Shown piece by piece: positions 3,631 through 7,782 of a stretch of DNA of 63,869 bases (the first letter of the stretch is position 1; the number at the start of each line of letters is the position of its first letter). The position numbers and the translations under genes are program-made. The notes beneath the pieces are model-generated. The model saw nothing but the letters and a program-made list of their open reading frames with translations, was not told the DNA's origin and made no database searches. Source of the stretch: a virus (taxonomy: Duplodnaviria; Caudoviricetes); the IMG/VR virus record IMGVR_UViG_3300033153_003795, positions 1-63,869 of that record. One strand, written 5' to 3'.

Positions 3631-4725
3631 ATGGCATTTCTAAAAACAGATAAGAGTAAAATAAAAAAACCTTATAAGCTAAGCAGGAAAGGTACTAACC
3701 ATGCACCAGGAGCACAACAACGGCTGTACCTAATTGAGTTTAGAGATGATAGTGGATACTACATAAAGTGCGGAAAGGCTAGTGGTAGTAGTTGTGGAGA
3801 AAGACTATCCTGTATAATAGAAAGCTACTTTAATGCCAGTGGAGGATGTTGTCCTTATGCTAAAGTCCTTAGAGACGTAGAGGTAACTGATGTATTTAAA
3901 CGAGAAACAGAATTTCACCACAACTTTAAGAATAGACGTCATTACCCTACGCATAGTTTTTCTGGGTACACAGAAATGTTTGCTATAACTAAGGAAGAGG
4001 CATTAGTAGCGTTTGATGAAATCGTGGGTAAGCAGTATAATAGAGCTACCACCAAAAAGTGCTACACATGTAGTAGAACTAAAAGTACAATAGAGTTTCA
4101 CACAAACAAAGCCAAAAAAGACGGCTTAAACCACGATTGCAAAGAGTGTACACTACATAAGCAGCGTAGTTATAGCGCATTACCGTACCGTATGTATTCT
4201 AATCAAATAGAACACTCCAAAACTAGGGGTCACCCTAGACCAGAGTACACCCGTCAAGAGTTTAAGTTATGGGTAACAACACAAGGTAAGTACAATAAAC
4301 TATATGAGCAGTATAAAGCTAGTGACTACGATAAACGACTAGTTCCATCGGTAGACAGACTAGATCCTATGCAAGGATACAACTTCAGTAACATAGAACT
4401 AGTAACTTTCATAGAGAATATGAAACGTAATGGTGATGTGCAGAAAAAAGTATCCGGTAAACCTGTGATAGCTATAGATAAACATTCTGGGAAAGCTGTA
4501 GCAGAATTTCAGACCCAGAATGAGTGCGCTAAAGTACTAAAGTTGTGCACAAAAAAGATATGCTCTAAAGTGGATAAAGTTTTGAGTTATGGGTGGATGG
4601 CTACAATAGGAGACTATCAACTAGTTAGTAAGCATAACGAGAATAATTTTATGCGTAATGGTTGGCTAAAACCTAGGTATAGGTATAAAAGGAAAGACGA
4701 TGTTCCTGAAAATAACGAGGCCTGA
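3631..4725 (+). CDS. Composite endonuclease: GIY-YIG/T5orf172-like + Zn finger + HNH-like + NUMOD1-like HTH
   Basis: LYLI..YIKCG..ETEFH..GYTEMF; KKCYTC..K..EF..DGL...CKEC; PSVDRLD..GY..NI.LV...EN; C-terminal KPV/EF..QNECAK. Confidence 0.65.
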   Translation: MAFLKTDKSKIKKPYKLSRKGTNHAPGAQQRLYLIEFRDDSGYYIKCGKASGSSCGERLSCIIESYFNASGGCCPYAKVLRDVEVTDVFKRETEFHHNFKNRRHYPTHSFSGYTEMFAITKEEALVAFDEIVGKQYNRATTKKCYTCSRTKSTIEFHTNKAKKDGLNHDCKECTLHKQRSYSALPYRMYSNQIEHSKTRGHPRPEYTRQEFKLWVTTQGKYNKLYEQYKASDYDKRLVPSVDRLDPMQGYNFSNIELVTFIENMKRNGDVQKKVSGKPVIAIDKHSGKAVAEFQTQNECAKVLKLCTKKICSKVDKVLSYGWMATIGDYQLVSKHNENNFMRNGWLKPRYRYKRKDDVPENNEA

Positions 4726-4900
4726 ACCTGAACAAGCCGTACTAGAGAAGCAATTAAAGCTACTAGATGGGCGGAATGATGGTGCAGATTGGATGTATCT
4801 TACTAGTGAGCTGGCTAGGTACAATATACAGCGTATTAAGCTAGTAGAACAGATAAGAACTATGGACGACTATTGGGTAGAACCCGAAAAGCCTACTTAG
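4700..4900 (+). CDS. Hypothetical protein
   Basis: 66 aa; AAAGGA RBS. Confidence 0.55.
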   Translation: MFLKITRPEPEQAVLEKQLKLLDGRNDGADWMYLTSELARYNIQRIKLVEQIRTMDDYWVEPEKPT

Positions 4901-4907
4901 TAGGTAG

Positions 4908-4941
4908 TTTAAGTTCTATTTAATATAAATGACGTTATACT
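4908..4941 (+). promoter_or_regulatory. Promoter for the leader and tRNA array
   Basis: TTTAAG..TTTAA..TATACT (4936-4941). Confidence 0.5.
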
Positions 4942-4972
4942 GTCATTACAACTACATAAAAGGAAACACAGC

Positions 4973-5095
4973 ATGTTATCAACTAACTGGTCTACATCAT
5001 CGTTATCAATGTTAACGCATAGATATAATAATGTAGATAGCTGTGGCTTCCGTAGTATTCTTGGAAACAAGATACAGGAACCTGCCACTAGGTAG
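4973..5095 (+). CDS. 40-aa leader peptide upstream of the tRNA array (not in the ORF track)
   Basis: AAAGGA RBS; MLSTNWSTSSLSMLTHRYNNVDSCGFRSILGNKIQEPATR*. Confidence 0.55.
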   Translation: MLSTNWSTSSLSMLTHRYNNVDSCGFRSILGNKIQEPATR

Positions 5096-5160
5096 CTCTC
5101 TTTCCCGGAGAGTTACTGAAAAGTAGCTTTCTGGAAACCCACTTCACAAAACTACTTTTC
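5091..5160 (+). promoter_or_regulatory. Attenuator-like alternative hairpins
   Basis: 5092-5100 pairs with 5108-5116; 5101-5117 pairs with 5122-5137 (GAAA loop); 5118-5126 is the exact complement of 5152-5160. Confidence 0.55.
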
Positions 5161-5200
5161 ATAACAATATAGTTCGAGAGAACTTTAAATATCAACTCAT

Positions 5201-5276
5201 GGGGTACTAGCTCAATCGGGAGAGCACTTGGTTTGCAACTAAGAGGTACGGGGATCGTAACCCCGGTATTCCACCA
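5201..5276 (+). tRNA. tRNA-Ala(UGC)
   Basis: Cloverleaf, G3:U70, encoded CCA; T-loop ATCGTAA. Confidence 0.9.
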
Positions 5277-5281
5277 ATAAC

Positions 5282-5358
5282 GGGCTTGTAGCTTAATAGG
5301 TTAAAGCCTTCCGCTCATAACGGAACAGATTTAGGTTCGATTCCTAATGAGCCCACCA
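5282..5358 (+). tRNA. tRNA-Ile2/Met(CAU)
   Basis: Cloverleaf, CAT anticodon, GGGCTTG acceptor typical of Ile2, CCA. Confidence 0.85.
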
Positions 5359-5360
5359 AA

Positions 5361-5431
5361 CGGATATGTCAAGGTGACAGTAGTTCCTCATAAGAACTAA
5401 TAGTCTGGCTCGATTCCAGAATATCCGACCA
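5361..5431 (+). tRNA. tRNA-Met(CAU) with truncated D-arm
   Basis: CGGATAT/ATATCCG acceptor, CAT anticodon, T-arm, CCA; D-arm only GTC-AAGGT-GAC. Confidence 0.75.
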
Positions 5432-5434
5432 TAT

Positions 5435-5510
5435 ATGGGTGAAGTGTTGATGGAAACACGCGGCGTTTGGGACGCTGAGATTGAGGGTTCGACCCCCTCG
5501 ACCCGTACCA
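5435..5510 (+). tRNA. tRNA-Pro(UGG)
   Basis: Anticodon arm CGGCG-TTTGGGA-CGCTG, TTCGA T-loop, CCA. Confidence 0.85.
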
Positions 5511-5584
5511 GCCCGGTTAGTTCAATGGTAGAACACCAGTGTTACATACTGAAGACAGAGGCTCGAACCCTCTACTGGGTACCA
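5511..5584 (+). tRNA. tRNA-Val(UAC)
   Basis: Cloverleaf, TAC anticodon, CCA. Confidence 0.85.
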
Positions 5585-5590
5585 AAACAA

Positions 5591-5667
5591 AGCTGAGTGA
5601 TGGAATTGGCATACATACTAGATTTAGAATCTAGGTTTTGAGGGTTCAAGTCCCTCCTTGGCTACCA
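5591..5667 (+). tRNA. tRNA-Leu(UAG), short variable loop
   Basis: CTAGA-TTTAGAA-TCTAG anticodon arm, CCA. Confidence 0.85.
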
Positions 5668-5668
5668 T

Positions 5669-5744
5669 GCCCAATAAGCTAATCAGGTGAAAGCGTCGGT
5701 GTGAAGTACCGAAGAGCTAGGATCAATACCTAGATTGGGCACCA
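5669..5744 (+). tRNA. tRNA-Phe(GAA)
   Basis: TCGGT-GTGAAGT-ACCGA arm, GCCCAAT/ATTGGGC acceptor, CCA. Confidence 0.85.
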
Positions 5745-5959
5745 TAGAATTTAATAAGCATTTTGTATCTTAACGAATGTTTACAGATTTTATATATTTT
5801 AGCGAGAAAATATATTGGTACTAGTAAGATAAGGTAATCAGCGCCTTCTAGGTCGAAAGATAAGCGGGAACCTAAGTGCAGAGAATGATATGATTTCTCT
5901 GTTTAAATAACAGTCACTATATAGTATGCCCCTTTCGGCCTTGGAACTGAGATGTTCTA
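5745..5959 (+). ncRNA. Putative structured ncRNA inside the tRNA array
   Basis: Several hand-folded stems, including 5846-5859 with 5932-5946; ends complementary; no credible ORF. Confidence 0.5.
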
Positions 5960-5971
5960 CTATGTAAATAT

Positions 5972-6049
5972 GCTCCCTTGACCCAACTGGCAGAGGTGAC
6001 GGGCTTAAAACTCGTTTACGTATCGGTTCAAATCCGATAGGGAGTACCA
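5972..6049 (+). tRNA. tRNA-Leu(UAA), short variable loop
   Basis: ACGGG-CTTAAAA-CTCGT arm, CCA. Confidence 0.85.
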
Positions 6050-6052
6050 AAT

Positions 6053-6128
6053 CTTCACGAAGCACAAACGGTCGTGCAACGGATTCCAAACCCGTAGGTT
6101 GTAGGTTCGATCCCTATCGTGTTGGCCA
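6053..6128 (+). tRNA. tRNA-Trp(CCA)
   Basis: CCA anticodon, G73, CCA end; two U-U mismatches in the acceptor stem. Confidence 0.8.
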
Positions 6129-6140
6129 AAGAAGGAAATT

Positions 6141-6236
6141 ATGAGAGATAAAGATAATAGGAAGATTACACAATCAAAGAAATCCTATAATAGAAAGAAA
6201 ATTAAAAAGGTGTGTGTCGGTAGCCCAATTGGTTAG
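6141..6236 (+). CDS. 31-aa basic minigene with ArfA-like motif, running into tRNA-His
   Basis: AAGGA RBS at 6132-6136; MRDKDNRKITQSKKSYNRKKIKKVCVGSPIG*. Confidence 0.45.
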   Translation: MRDKDNRKITQSKKSYNRKKIKKVCVGSPIG

Positions 6237-6291
6237 AGGCAGGTGGTTGTGATCCATCTTGTTGTGAGTTCGAGCCTCACCCGTCACCCCA
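6214..6291 (+). tRNA. tRNA-His(GUG)
   Basis: GTG anticodon, C73, CCA; position -1 is T, not G. Confidence 0.85.
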
Positions 6292-6292
6292 T

Positions 6293-6367
6293 ACTCTGTT
6301 AGCTAAATGTAAAGCACTGGACTGCAAACCCAGAGATTTATCGGTTCAAGCCCGATACAGAGTTCCA
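6293..6367 (+). tRNA. tRNA-Cys(GCA)
   Basis: GCA anticodon, U73, CCA. Confidence 0.85.
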
Positions 6368-6371
6368 ATAT

Positions 6372-6447
6372 GCCGTCGTAATTCAACTGGATGAAATTCG
6401 TGCTTCTAACGCGAAAGTTGGGGGTTCGAATCCCTCCGATGGTGCCA
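6372..6447 (+). tRNA. tRNA-Arg(UCU)
   Basis: TCT anticodon, TTCGAAT T-loop, CCA. Confidence 0.85.
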
Positions 6448-6449
6448 AT

Positions 6450-6521
6450 GCCCTTGCTTGAGGATAAGATTCCGGCCTTCGAAGCTGGTAATTGAAGTTT
6501 CGATTACTTCCAAGGGCTCCA
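6450..6521 (+). tRNA. tRNA-Arg(UCG) with truncated D-arm
   Basis: GCCCTTG/CAAGGGC acceptor, CCGGC-CTTCGAA-GCTGG arm, CCA. Confidence 0.75.
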
Positions 6522-6552
6522 AAAATAAACAAAAATAATAGAGGAACTACAC

Positions 6553-6999
6553 ATGAATACATTTGACATAGACTACATTAAAACATTTATCGCTGCTCAT
6601 GAGGATAGTAAAGTGTATTTAGGCGTAGATTCTCAAAGAGCAAAGAAAGATAAAATAAAATTTGCGACGGTTGTTATTATACATTATAATGGGTGTAATG
6701 GAGCTCGCGTATTTCATGATATTACTTACGATAAGATTGCAGATGCCAAACTTGGTCGACCATTTAATCGTATGATGAAAGAGGTACAACTAGTTACTGA
6801 ACTATACACTAAGCTAGAAGACGTGTTAATTGATAGAGAGTTTGAAATTCACCTTGACATAGCTGAGGATCCCTGTATGGGGTCAAGTGTAGCTGCTGGA
6901 GCAGGAAAAGGATATATATACGGAATGGTTGGAATTCCTCCAGTAATGAAACCTGATGCGTGGGCAGCAAGTTGTTGTGCAGATAAGTATAGTAAATGA
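6553..6999 (+). CDS. RNase H-like YkuK/DUF458 family protein
   Basis: VYLGVDSQ...EIHLDI...G.S...GYI.G...KPDAWAAS..AD motifs. Confidence 0.8.
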   Translation: MNTFDIDYIKTFIAAHEDSKVYLGVDSQRAKKDKIKFATVVIIHYNGCNGARVFHDITYDKIADAKLGRPFNRMMKEVQLVTELYTKLEDVLIDREFEIHLDIAEDPCMGSSVAAGAGKGYIYGMVGIPPVMKPDAWAASCCADKYSK

Positions 7000-7095: not shown

Positions 7096-7782
7096 GTGCA
7101 TTACACGATATACAAAACTACAAATAACGTAAACAACAAACACTATATAGGTGCGCACGCGACAACTGATGCTAATGACAAATATATCGGCTCAGGAAAA
7201 CATTTGCTTCGAGCGATAAAAAAGTACGGAACAGCATCCTTCAGTAAAGAGGTAATCTTTATGGCAAAGTCAGAAGCTATAATGTATTGGATTGAAGAGA
7301 TGTTAGTCGATAGAGCGTACGTAAATAATGTAAACAGTTATAACCTTAAAACCGGCGGGAAATCAGGAAGCGGTCTAAATAGATTTACGAAAGAAGAATC
7401 TTGCGCTATATGGAAAAAGAGATCCGAGTCTAGTTTATGGGTAAACGGCAAAACCTATGAGGAAATTTACGGAAAAGAGCGTGCAATTGAGCTTAAAAAA
7501 CTTCGAAGCGATACCTTTAAAAAGATAGACAAGAATGGAGCCAAGAACCCAAGAGCTGGTTTTGTAACTGTGTACAACGCTTCTTCTGAAGTCGTGCATG
7601 AGTTTGATGGAACATTTAGAACTGCAACAAAAGAGCTTGGATTACCGACAAACGCTCTGTTACAGTCATACTTGAACGGCGGAGTTAAAATATACGAGAA
7701 CATAGTAGACAATGGTAATATAGCTATTCTTAAATCAAAAGGATTTTATAAGTATAAAGGATGGTACGCAATAAAAAGATAA
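7096..7782 (+). CDS. GIY-YIG (Seg-like) homing endonuclease
   Basis: YTIYKTTN..NNKHYIG.H...Y.GSG..L..AIKKYG...F.KE...YN. Confidence 0.85.
   Translation: MHYTIYKTTNNVNNKHYIGAHATTDANDKYIGSGKHLLRAIKKYGTASFSKEVIFMAKSEAIMYWIEEMLVDRAYVNNVNSYNLKTGGKSGSGLNRFTKEESCAIWKKRSESSLWVNGKTYEEIYGKERAIELKKLRSDTFKKIDKNGAKNPRAGFVTVYNASSEVVHEFDGTFRTATKELGLPTNALLQSYLNGGVKIYENIVDNGNIAILKSKGFYKYKGWYAIKR

What the first reader, a model, noticed from the sequence alone, without database searches (positions are those of the whole stretch)
4936..5200. Leader peptide plus four-segment RNA switch in front of the tRNA array: candidate tRNA-depletion sensor
Seen: a promoter, an AAAGGA RBS and a 40-codon ORF (4973-5095) lie directly before 13 tRNAs. 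Segment 1 (GTAGCTCTC, 5092-5100) overlaps the leader stop codon and can pair with segment 2 (GAGAGTTAC). Segment 2 can instead form a long GAAA-capped hairpin (5101-5137). GAAAAGTAG (5118-5126) is the exact complement of CTACTTTTC (5152-5160). This matches the 1:2 / 2:3 / 3:4 logic of ribosome-mediated attenuators such as trpL. The leader has codons for every amino acid the array supplies, including TTA x3, TGG, CAT, AGA, GTA, TGT, TTC and ATA. Inference: ribosome stalling after host tRNA loss (e.g. anticodon-nuclease defence) flips the switch and turns on the phage tRNAs. Caveats: no U-tract follows the 2:3 hairpin, and a 40-mer can contain these residues by chance.
Basis: partly seen in the sequence, partly recalled or inferred. 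Interest (0 to 1): 0.85.

Follow-up and report, generated by a model that had tools for sequence, protein, structure and literature searches.

The report
Translated RNA switch heading phage tRNA arrays
A short translated reading frame followed by RNA hairpins that can fold in two mutually exclusive ways sits in front of the tRNA gene cluster of this marine phage and of several unrelated uncultured phages, which suggests that these phages tie tRNA production to how well ribosomes are working.

Summary
Window 4973-5095 is a 40-codon ORF with an AAAGGA Shine-Dalgarno. Its UAG lies inside the 5' arm of hairpin hp1 (5091-5117), and hp2 (5118-5160) abuts hp1. A GAAA-capped alternative hairpin (5105-5134) excludes both. 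The same layout precedes tRNA arrays in L084, L089/L090, L093 and L087. These form three sequence classes, and one comes from a T4-like phage. Helix sequences differ but pairing is kept. The alternative hairpin beat all but at most 1 of 1000 hp2-preserving permutations in 5 of 5 leaders. The stop codon lies 11-13 nt before its first pair in 5 of 5. I also found a fourth conserved helix that sequesters the Shine-Dalgarno with ORF nt +54 to +84 (5 of 5, counting L088). My best reading is a ribosome-coupled leader switch, similar in logic to trpL or mgtL. The output is unknown. No hairpin is followed by a U-tract in any member. Array-cognate codons are not enriched (12 of 40 against 26.9% background). 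The "tRNA-depletion or defence sensor" reading is therefore untested. I found no cultured relative, no RNA data and no prior description.

The parts
4891..4905 (+). Terminator-like hairpin at the end of the upstream 66-aa ORF (4700-4900). It probably insulates the leader unit from upstream transcription.
   Evidence: 6 pairs, loop 3, T-rich tail. One search gives a weak sub-threshold Rfam DUF805b match at 4874-4906 (20.9 bits against a gathering score of 35.6).
4936..4941 (+). -10-like hexamer TATACT, a candidate promoter element. No convincing -35 was found.
   Evidence: Hexamers TATACT, TATACT, TACAAT and TATAAA end 29-32 nt before the ATG in the window, L084, L089 and L093. L088 has none there. 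The consensus scan did not call it.
4959..4964 (+). Shine-Dalgarno AAAGGA, 8 nt before the ATG.
   Evidence: An AAGGA or AAGGAG element sits at the same spacing in L084, L089, L093 and L088.
4962..4972 (+). 5' strand of the Shine-Dalgarno-sequestering helix (Shine-Dalgarno plus spacer).
   Evidence: paired in the MFE with probability 0.7-0.9; duplex of -14.1 kcal/mol, reached by 0 of 1000 dinucleotide shuffles of the ORF.
4973..5095 (+). Leader ORF of 40 codons, MLSTNWSTSSLSMLTHRYNNVDSCGFRSILGNKIQEPATR, stop UAG.
   Evidence: Homologous ORFs are in L084 (42 aa) and L089 (41 aa), plus protein P0003 (39 aa). Indels are in threes in the nucleotide alignment.
5040..5051 (+). Anti-Shine-Dalgarno strand inside the ORF (codons 23-27), which pairs with 4962-4972.
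5091..5117 (+). Hairpin hp1 (segments 1:2). It has 11 bp and the loop UUCCC. The stop codon at 5093-5095 lies in its 5' arm.
   Evidence: -13.7 kcal/mol.
5105..5134 (+). Alternative hairpin (segments 2:3). It has 13 bp and a GAAA tetraloop at 5118-5121. It is mutually exclusive with both hp1 and hp2.
   Evidence: -19.3 kcal/mol; the MFE when segment 1 is masked; 0 of 1000 permutations are as stable; it is the MFE of transcripts ending at 5138-5150.
5118..5160 (+). Hairpin hp2 (segments 3:4), GAAAAGUAG...CUACUUUUC with inner pairs. No U-tract follows.
   Evidence: -10.9 kcal/mol.
5161..5200 (+). A-rich, G-poor spacer before the first tRNA.
   Evidence: 5118-5200 has 11% G against 21% for the window. 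Only 1.2% of 83-nt windows are as G-poor.
5201..6518 (+). Array of 13 tRNA genes: Ala, Met, Met, Pro, Val, Leu, Phe, Leu, Trp, His, Cys, Arg and a weak Phe.

Best explanation
The region is a conserved, translation-coupled leader for a phage tRNA array.

Proposed sequence of events (inferred):
1. A transcript starts about 25 nt before the ATG.
2. Its Shine-Dalgarno is free only until ORF nt +54 to +84 are transcribed. After that it is locked in a long-range helix, so essentially only a first, co-transcriptional ribosome can load.
3. If that ribosome reaches the stop codon, which sits inside the 5' arm of hp1, it keeps hp1 open. Segment 2 begins 11-13 nt after the stop, just outside a terminating ribosome. 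It pairs with segment 3 into a GAAA-capped hairpin, and hp2 cannot form.
4. If no ribosome arrives, or it lags upstream, hp1 and hp2 both form.

The two folds are proposed to decide how much RNA polymerase or processing proceeds into the tRNA genes. No fold ends in a U-tract, so the likeliest outputs are Rho-dependent attenuation, as in mgtL/corL or tnaC type uORF leaders, or differential RNase access to the A-rich, G-poor spacer.

Shown: the ORF, four helices, their mutual exclusivity, their conservation and the geometry. Inferred: ribosome dependence, and that the tRNA array is the regulated target. Unknown: which fold is ON.
For: **Conservation of the module**
- The same layout precedes tRNA arrays in L084, L089/L090, L093 and L087. 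L088 shares the ORF, the Shine-Dalgarno helix and the stop-in-hairpin feature.
- L093 lies next to a T4-like family B DNA polymerase. The window has an SU10-type portal. The module is therefore shared by unrelated phages.

**Folds**
- MFE is hp1+hp2 in 5 of 5 leaders. z-scores were computed for three: -5.0, -4.7 and -7.6.
- With segment 1 masked, the MFE is the GAAA hairpin in 5 of 5. Energies for hp1 / hp2 / alternative:

| Leader | hp1 | hp2 | alternative |
|---|---|---|---|
| window | -13.7 | -10.9 | -19.3 |
| L089 | -8.7 | -10.8 | -13.5 |
| L084 | -15.5 | -13.5 | -15.4 |
| L093 | -11.4 | -10.6 | -17.5 |
| L087 | -10.6 | -9.7 | -17.5 |

- The alternative hairpin is not a by-product of hp1 and hp2. 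Among 1000 hp2-preserving permutations per leader, 0, 0, 1, 0 and 0 reach the observed energy.

**Covariation**
- With the leaders anchored on GAAA, both sides changed at 9 of 12 hp1 positions, 12 of 13 alternative-hairpin positions and 9 of 14 hp2 positions.
- Many G-U pairs are present, which fits RNA on the + strand.

**Geometry**
- The stop codon starts 1-3 nt inside the hp1 5' arm.
- The distance from the stop to the first alternative pair is 12, 11, 13, 12 and 13 nt.

**Shine-Dalgarno helix**
- It is in the MFE of 5 of 5 leaders, with pairing probability mostly 0.7-1.0 (lower at helix-end bases, e.g. 0.4 and 0.5).
- Among 1000 dinucleotide shuffles per leader, 0, 4, 9, 0 and 28 reach the observed duplex energy.

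**The ORF is real**
- A Shine-Dalgarno sits at the right spacing in 5 of 5.
- Indels are in threes.
- Synonymous changes occur between L084 and L089 (6 synonymous, 8 non-synonymous, 26 identical codons).
- Other pipelines called it as a gene (P0001-P0005).
- From base composition, an open run of 40 codons has a probability of about 0.05 per lineage.

**Stems are better kept than the peptide**
- The L093 and L087 peptides are 74% identical. Reading their DNA by eye, I saw differences only in the loops and the A-run, none in the stems.

**Precedent**
- uORF-controlled Rho-dependent attenuators without intrinsic terminators are described: tnaC, speFL, cruR, mgtL and corL (review PMC12360218, passages read).
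Against: - No output element is identified. None of the 5 members has a U-tract after hp2 or after the alternative hairpin.
- The candidate rut stretch is G-poor (9-12% G) but only 15-20% C. In L093 and L087 it is only about 50 nt long.
- There is no expression, 5'/3'-end or ribosome data. No sequencing run was listed and no cultured phage carries the module.
- Only three independent sequence classes have DNA, so a formal covariation statistic such as R-scape is not possible. The pair tables use each sequence's own MFE, so the pairs are canonical by construction.
- With a footprint that also masks part of segment 2, hp2 rather than the alternative hairpin wins in L084 at all footprints tried, and in the window and L089 at the longer ones.
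- Prefix folding shows the alternative hairpin is also the equilibrium fold of ribosome-free transcripts that end before segment 4. Ribosome dependence is therefore not forced by the thermodynamics.
- In the window/L084/L089 group the peptide is conserved (SLSL.LTH.YNNVD ... IQEP). Classical leader peptides are not conserved in this way.
- The module is absent from 4 related SU10-portal phage records with 0-5 tRNAs. It is also absent from the L002 array, which starts with a tmRNA.
Confidence: 0.55

Rival explanations
1. The leader is a tRNA-depletion sensor. When host tRNAs are destroyed, for example by anticodon nucleases, ribosomes stall in the leader, the switch flips and the phage tRNA array is turned on.
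For: - The switch architecture and its position in front of tRNA arrays are real and conserved.
- Conserved amino-acid positions keep identical codons far more often than in a neighbouring gene. Between the window and L084 the leader has 14 identical and 2 synonymous codons, against 50 and 51 in the RNaseH-like gene. This would fit selection on particular codons.
- Rare UCG and ACG codons are conserved in the window, L084 and L089.
Against: - Array-cognate codons are not enriched: 12 of 40 against 26.9%, P = 0.39.
- The conserved YNNVD block uses Tyr, Asn and Asp codons, for which the window's array has no tRNA.
- A ribosome stalled well upstream of the stop gives the same fold as no translation at all, so stalling is not what uniquely flips the switch.
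- The codon identity is equally explained by overlapping RNA helices. The GCC UUC / GGC UUC codons are the anti-Shine-Dalgarno.
- No terminator is present and nothing here links the leader to defence systems.
Confidence: 0.12
2. The ORF encodes a functional micropeptide. The RNA structures serve that gene only. Shine-Dalgarno sequestration limits its translation, and the tandem 3' hairpins stabilise or delimit its mRNA once RNase P releases it from the tRNA precursor. The tRNAs are merely co-transcribed.
For: - Peptide motifs are conserved in four sequences of one group: SLSL.LTH.YNNVD, SAFCNPIK and WIQEP.
- L084 and L089 differ by 6 synonymous changes.
- Shine-Dalgarno-sequestering long-range helices are typical of tightly controlled small genes (recalled, not tested).
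- A second conserved micro-ORF lies inside the arrays. These arrays therefore do carry small genes.
Against: - The L093/L087 and L088 peptides show no detectable similarity to the window group, yet the RNA architecture is the same.
- The peptide diverges faster than the stems. L093 and L087 are 74% identical in peptide, and by eye I saw no stem differences between them.
- A stabilising 3' hairpin does not need a conserved, mutually exclusive alternative, nor a stop codon placed inside its 5' arm in 5 of 5 leaders.
- No family match: PHROGs gave 0 for the window peptide. tblastn of the L089 peptide against cultured phages found only 3 weak places with E-values of 4 to 10.
Confidence: 0.2
3. The region is a structured non-coding 5' leader, a processing, stability or protein-binding module for the tRNA precursor. 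The ORF and the 'Shine-Dalgarno' are incidental strands of helices.
For: - The whole 4936-5200 stretch is unusually structured, z = -5.2.
- The purine-rich 'Shine-Dalgarno' is one strand of a conserved helix.
- Blocks of 13-18 nt are identical between the window and L084 with no synonymous variation.
Against: - An open frame of 39-54 codons, starting with ATG 7-8 nt after a GGA/GGAG and ending inside hp1, is kept in every member with DNA.
- Indels come in threes.
- Synonymous changes are present.
- The chance of an open 40-codon frame is about 0.05 per lineage from base composition.
Confidence: 0.08

Closest known systems
Ribosome-mediated transcription attenuators of amino-acid operons (trpL, hisL, pheL, thrL, leuL)
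   Same: A short leader ORF with its own Shine-Dalgarno, followed by four segments that form 1:2, 2:3 or 3:4 helices. The position of the lead ribosome selects the fold.
   Different: - 3:4 is not an intrinsic terminator, as there is no U-tract.
- There is no run of regulatory codons.
- Segment 1 overlaps the stop codon rather than the sensed codons.
- An extra helix sequesters the Shine-Dalgarno.
- The downstream genes are tRNAs in a phage, not biosynthetic enzymes.
uORF-dependent Rho-dependent attenuators (mgtL-mgtA, corL-corA; tnaC, speFL, cruR)
   Same: Translation of a uORF, or a ribosome held at its stop codon, remodels or shields the leader RNA, and no intrinsic terminator is needed (review PMC12360218, passages read). 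The stretch after the switch is G-poor with C exceeding G. Part of the peptide's C-terminal region is conserved within one group.
   Different: Rho dependence and a rut site are not shown. C content is only 15-20%. There is no evidence for a sensed ligand. The target is an untranslated tRNA array.
Translational attenuation leaders (ermC, cat)
   Same: A leader peptide plus alternative hairpins whose choice depends on ribosome position.
   Different: Those switches free the Shine-Dalgarno of a downstream ORF. Here no ORF lies downstream, and the sequestered Shine-Dalgarno belongs to the leader ORF itself.
T-box riboswitches
   Same: A cis-RNA that links tRNA status to read-through.
   Different: Rfam gave no T-box match, and indeed no match at all, in 4907-5200. 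I noticed no specifier or T-box features by eye. T-boxes work without translation.

Membership tests
trpL-type ribosome-mediated attenuator | Short leader ORF with a functional ribosome-binding site | tested here: met
   ORF of 40 codons with AAAGGA 8 nt upstream. The arrangement is conserved in 5 of 5 leaders. Translation itself was not tested.
trpL-type ribosome-mediated attenuator | Mutually exclusive 1:2, 2:3 and 3:4 helices | tested here: met
   Found in 5 of 5 leaders, with compensatory changes and permutation controls.
trpL-type ribosome-mediated attenuator | 3:4 is an intrinsic terminator (GC-rich stem followed by a U-tract) | tested here: not met
   hp2 is followed by AUAAC, AUAAU, AAAAU or AAAAAAA. 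The terminator scan did not call it.
trpL-type ribosome-mediated attenuator | Tandem regulatory codons for the sensed amino acid or tRNA within segment 1 | tested here: not met
   There is no codon run. Array-cognate codons are 12 of 40 against 26.9% background. Only the last 1-2 codons and the stop overlap segment 1.
uORF-dependent Rho-dependent attenuator (mgtL/corL/tnaC type) | uORF whose translation or stop-codon occupancy remodels or shields the leader | tested here: inconclusive
   The geometry fits: the stop is inside hp1 and the alternative helix starts 11-13 nt after the stop. No functional data are available.
uORF-dependent Rho-dependent attenuator (mgtL/corL/tnaC type) | C-rich, G-poor unstructured rut site downstream | tested here: inconclusive
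   G is 9-12% and C 15-20% over 50-103 nt. The stretch is G-poor but not C-rich.
uORF-dependent Rho-dependent attenuator (mgtL/corL/tnaC type) | Termination depends on Rho | not testable with these tools
   This needs in vitro transcription with and without Rho, or bicyclomycin treatment in vivo.
T-box riboswitch | Match to the T-box covariance model (specifier loop, T-box antiterminator bulge) | tested here: not met
   The Rfam E-value search of 4600-6700 lists no T-box and nothing in 4907-5200.
Type I toxin mRNA | Small hydrophobic membrane peptide | tested here: not met
   The peptides are polar and have no hydrophobic stretch, judged by reading the sequences. An antisense RNA was not looked for.

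The most novel reading that the evidence does not exclude
This is the first ribosome-mediated attenuator known to govern tRNA genes. The phage lets a single pioneer ribosome translate a 40-54 codon leader, and the Shine-Dalgarno is locked afterwards. It uses that ribosome's arrival at a stop codon buried in a hairpin to measure the host's current translational capacity, and it sets transcription or processing of its own tRNA array accordingly. The output would be homeostatic, or boosted when host tRNAs are depleted. The module travels with tRNA arrays between unrelated marine phages, from an SU10-portal podophage to a T4-like myophage.
Probability: 0.4. Interest if true: 0.85.

Novelty: new variant of a known kind. 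Interest (0 to 1): 0.75.

Why it matters
Why phages carry tRNA arrays, and how they deploy them, is still debated. The proposals are codon compensation, replacement of tRNAs lost during host shut-off, and escape from tRNA-targeting defences. See the abstract of PMC10264068 in the listing.

To my knowledge (recalled), regulation of phage tRNA genes has been discussed only at the promoter level. Two full-text searches listed no paper describing a leader-peptide attenuator in front of tRNA genes.

A conserved cis-element that couples array expression to ribosome behaviour would make the question testable, because the input of the switch would reveal what the tRNAs are for. It would also extend leader-peptide attenuation to untranslated target genes and to phages. 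Finally, it offers a compact, portable translation-sensing RNA device of about 210 nt for this window.

Tried and rejected
**Searches that found nothing or nothing useful**
- blastn of the window leader, the L089 leader and the L093 leader against 50,697 cultured-phage records gave no homologue. tblastn of the L089 peptide gave only chance-level hits.
- Exact patterns from hp1 and from tRNA-Ala had no match in viral contigs.
- The upstream 66-aa ORF has no relative in viral contigs.
- The window peptide alone found no homologue among 5.8 billion proteins. A profile of three peptides found P0001-P0003.
- The genome-contig scan with the peptide profile gave one locus, L094. It lies inside a bacterial gene with no tRNA nearby, so I rejected it as chance.
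- Four related SU10-portal phage records (G001-G004) hold 1, 3, 5 and 0 tRNAs and no leader match.
- No RNA holder was listed and no sequencing run was listed for window 4700-5700.

**Analyses that failed or were dropped**
- RNAalifold on a MAFFT alignment of the five hairpin regions misaligned the stems and was uninformative. I replaced it with GAAA-anchored tables in scripts.
- I built no covariance model and ran neither count of structure pairs nor R-scape. With three sequence classes, they could not give a meaningful statistic.

**Ideas considered and rejected**
- hp2 as a weak A-tract / stem / U-tract terminator. The 3' U runs shrink from UUUUC to UUC across members and the loops are 7-17 nt.
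- An internal sigma-70 promoter TTATCA-N-TATAAT inside the ORF. The spacers are 15, 15 and 18 nt.
- A T-box-like UGGN bulge, which I did not see conserved by eye.
- A GAAA tetraloop receptor (partial motifs in L084 only, seen by eye).
- Pairing of freed segment 4 with the Shine-Dalgarno (4-5 bp only, by eye).
- The resemblance of WIQEP to arrest peptides is recalled only and was not tested.

- The metagenome records behind L084, L085, L087 and L088 are not held by the genome search.
- Supplements of papers were not consulted.
Full report
**What the window is.** It is an IMG/VR virus record of 63,869 bp, estimated 56% complete. It has an SU10-type portal. Its nearest cultured relatives are the Alteromonas podophages AD45-P1 to P4, at 62% portal identity. 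The finding lies in a 300-nt spacer between a 66-aa ORF (4700-4900) and the first of 13 tRNA genes. The region is flanked by an HNH-type endonuclease gene (3631-4725), a PF04308 RNaseH-like gene (6553-6999) and a GIY-YIG homing endonuclease gene (7096-7782).

**Checking the observation.**
- The ATG is at 4973 and the TAG at 5093-5095, giving 40 codons. AAAGGA is at 4959-4964.
- GTAGCTCTC at 5092-5100 overlaps the stop and pairs with GAGAGTTAC at 5108-5116.
- GAAAAGTAG at 5118-5126 pairs with CTACTTTTC at 5152-5160.
- ViennaRNA folds 5084-5165 into two abutting hairpins, hp1 (5091-5117) and hp2 (5118-5160), with z = -5.0. The whole 4936-5200 stretch has z = -5.19.
- The GAAA-capped 2:3 hairpin (5105-5134, 13 bp, -19.3 kcal/mol) becomes the MFE as soon as the hp1 5' arm is made unavailable.
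- Thirteen tRNAs is the union of ARAGORN (11) and Rfam (two more). Relaxed ARAGORN calls those two Trp and a weak Phe.
- The promoter is only a -10-like TATACT at 4936-4941, which the consensus scan did not call.
- Rfam finds nothing in 4907-5200.

**Relatives.**
- Nothing similar exists in 50,697 cultured-phage records.
- A metagenome scan with the RNaseH-like protein that closes the array gave five loci, all with tRNA arrays.
- In L084, blastn found the leader (83% over 48 nt, E = 3.7e-8). Reading it showed the same layout: Shine-Dalgarno, a 42-codon ORF, a stop inside a hairpin, GAAA, a second hairpin, and then tRNA-Ala(UGC).
- A two-block pattern then found L089/L090 in IMG/VR, with a 41-codon ORF followed by tRNA-Ala.
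- A peptide profile found the same ORFs already called as genes, plus a fourth variant, P0003.
- L087 shows the same hairpins in front of a 24-tRNA array. Its relative L093 lies on a 183-kb contig directly after a T4-like family B DNA polymerase gene. L093 has a 54-codon ORF with an unrelated peptide sequence, the same stop-in-hairpin / GAAA / hairpin layout, and tRNA-Thr 13 nt later.
- L088 has a 50-codon ORF whose stop also lies in a hairpin arm, but it lacks the GAAA alternative.
- Related records without the module: G001-G004 and L002, whose array starts with a tmRNA.

**Is the structure more than chance?**
- All five leaders fold as hp1+hp2. The three for which z was computed score -5.0, -4.7 and -7.6.
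- In all five, masking segment 1 makes the GAAA hairpin the MFE. It is always more stable than hp2 alone and less stable than hp1 plus hp2.
- I permuted the base pairs and loop bases of hp2, so that hp2 was preserved. This produced an alternative hairpin as stable as the real one in 0, 0, 1, 0 and 0 of 1000 trials.
- Aligned on the GAAA, the segment-2 bases differ at almost every position between the three sequence classes (window+L089, L084, L093+L087). Both partners follow them. Both sides changed at 9 of 12 hp1 positions, 12 of 13 alternative positions and 9 of 14 hp2 positions.
- These tables use each sequence's own predicted fold, so canonical pairing is built in. The information lies in the shared register and in the permutation control.
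- MAFFT plus RNAalifold could not align the stems.
- Many pairs are G-U, which argues for RNA on the + strand rather than DNA repeats.

**Geometry.** The first base of the stop codon lies 1-3 nt inside the hp1 5' arm in 5 of 5 leaders. The first paired base of the alternative helix lies 12, 11, 13, 12 and 13 nt after it. From general knowledge, a ribosome with the stop in its A site covers about 12-13 nt downstream. Such a ribosome would therefore hold all of segment 1 and leave segment 2 just free. This is inference, but the constancy of the spacing is striking.

- In the window, L084, L089, L093 and L088, the Shine-Dalgarno and the spacer up to the ATG pair with ORF nt +54 to +84. In the window this is 4962-4972 with 5040-5051.
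- The helix is in the MFE with mostly high pairing probability.
- It exceeds dinucleotide shuffles of the ORF. Only 0, 4, 9, 0 and 28 of 1000 shuffles reach it.
- The spacer sequences differ (ACACAGC, GCUACCC, ACUAC, GCUAAU, ACCACU) and the partner follows.
- The finished RNA therefore hides its own ribosome-binding site. Loading is favoured only while the polymerase is still within about 90 nt, which is the regime in which attenuators work.

**Is the ORF real?**
- Every member with DNA has an ATG 7-8 nt after a GGA/GGAG and an open frame of 40-54 codons that ends inside hp1.
- A nucleotide alignment shows indels in threes.
- L084 and L089 differ by 6 synonymous and 8 non-synonymous codons.
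- From base composition, an open 40-codon frame has a probability of about 0.05.
- Within the window/L084/L089/P0003 group the peptide keeps SLSL.LTH.YNNVD, SAFCNPIK and WIQEP. Across groups the peptide is unrelated while the RNA layout is the same.
- The L093 and L087 peptides are only 74% identical. Reading their DNA by eye, I saw differences only in the loops and the A-run, none in the stems. The act of translation and the RNA therefore look more constrained than the peptide.
- An unexplained point concerns positions with identical amino acids in the window and L084. There the leader has 14 identical codons and only 2 synonymous differences, against 50 and 51 in the RNaseH-like gene. Part of this is the anti-Shine-Dalgarno. 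The 18-nt identical block GATATAATAATGTAGATA (which contains TATAATAATGTAGAT) and the 13-nt block GATACAGGAACCT are not explained.

- Codons read by the array's 13 tRNAs make up 12 of 40 leader codons, against 26.9% of 16,173 codons in the window's long ORFs (P = 0.39). With generous wobble it is 15 of 40 against 38.5%. The codon argument therefore carries no weight.
- The conserved YNNVD codons have no tRNA in this array.
- No hairpin is followed by a U-tract, so this is not a trpL-type terminator switch.
- Because segment 1 overlaps the stop, stalling far upstream gives the default fold. It is completed translation, or dwelling at the stop, that flips it.
- Prefix folding shows the alternative hairpin is also the equilibrium fold of ribosome-free transcripts ending between segments 3 and 4. 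The decision must be kinetic.

**Mechanism I commit to (confidence 0.55).** This is a ribosome-coupled leader switch that sets read-through or processing into the tRNA array.
- The most likely output is Rho-dependent attenuation. The stretch from hp2 to the first tRNA is G-poor (9-12% against 21%) with C exceeding G. It is largely single-stranded only in the 2:3 state. uORF-controlled Rho attenuators without terminators are well documented (PMC12360218, passages read).
- On that reading, efficient translation would expose the stretch and reduce array transcription, while poor translation would hide it in hp2 and allow read-through.
- The opposite polarity, or an RNase E / RNase P processing output, is not excluded. 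The C content (15-20%) and the short spacer in L093 (50 nt) weaken the rut idea.

**Rivals.**
- A micropeptide gene with self-serving RNA structure (0.2).
- A non-coding processing module with an incidental ORF (0.08).

**Novelty.**
- Two full-text searches listed no paper describing a leader peptide or attenuator in front of phage or bacterial tRNA genes. I read only the listings and abstracts for these, and passages of one review.
- The element works like a leader-peptide attenuator but fails two defining features of the trpL family: an intrinsic terminator and regulatory codons. I therefore file it as a new variant of a known kind, not as a member.

Noticed in passing
window 6141-6236 (+); L084 3480-3541; L085 1504-1568: A second conserved micro-ORF lies inside the tRNA arrays. 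It encodes a basic peptide, MRDKDNRKITQSKKSYNRKK..., has a GAAGGA Shine-Dalgarno, and in the window runs into tRNA-His. It is 89-91% identical in DNA between three phages, more than the flanking tRNAs, with synonymous AGG/AGA and AAG/AAA changes.
   Followed up: partly
window 6553-6999; L002, L084, L085, L087, L088 (match at about 4001-4444 or 2215-2658): A PF04308 'RNaseH-like' gene sits at the 3' end of, or inside, the tRNA array in all 6 loci examined. It has 79 tblastn hits in cultured, mostly Vibrio, phages. This suggests a role in tRNA or tmRNA handling.
   Followed up: partly
L002 2054-2411; L088 3491-3773; L093 6895-7182: Phage-encoded tmRNA genes are embedded in the tRNA arrays of related uncultured phages.
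   Followed up: no
window 5022-5039 and 5071-5083: GATATAATAATGTAGATA (18 nt, containing a perfect TATAAT) and GATACAGGAACCT (13 nt) are identical between the window and L084 with no synonymous change. A 15-nt and a 12-nt core of these blocks were also found exactly in L089/L090. Flanking genes are saturated at synonymous sites. This points to a constraint beyond the peptide, such as a pause site, an internal promoter, further pairing or codon identity.
   Followed up: partly
window 5000-5002 and 5015-5017: The codons UCG (5% of Ser codons) and ACG (8% of Thr codons), rare in this phage, are kept in the window, L084 and L089 leaders.
   Followed up: no
window 4907-4913; same offset in L084 and L089: A TTAAG(C/T)T motif lies 22 nt upstream of the -10-like hexamer in the window, L084 and L089. 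The distance is too long for a sigma-70 -35 element.
   Followed up: no
window 5745-5971: A 227-nt gap in the array between tRNA-Phe and tRNA-Leu has two promoter-like hits (5770-5798, 5789-5816) and no tRNA or Rfam match.
   Followed up: no
window 3631-4725 and 7096-7782: An HNH/endonuclease VII-like gene and a GIY-YIG homing endonuclease gene bracket the leader and tRNA array. This is consistent with the array region being a mobile or recombination-prone module.
   Followed up: no
L085 1-262: A long A-rich tandem repeat (units of roughly 13 nt, read by eye) directly precedes that phage's tRNA array at the contig end.
   Followed up: no
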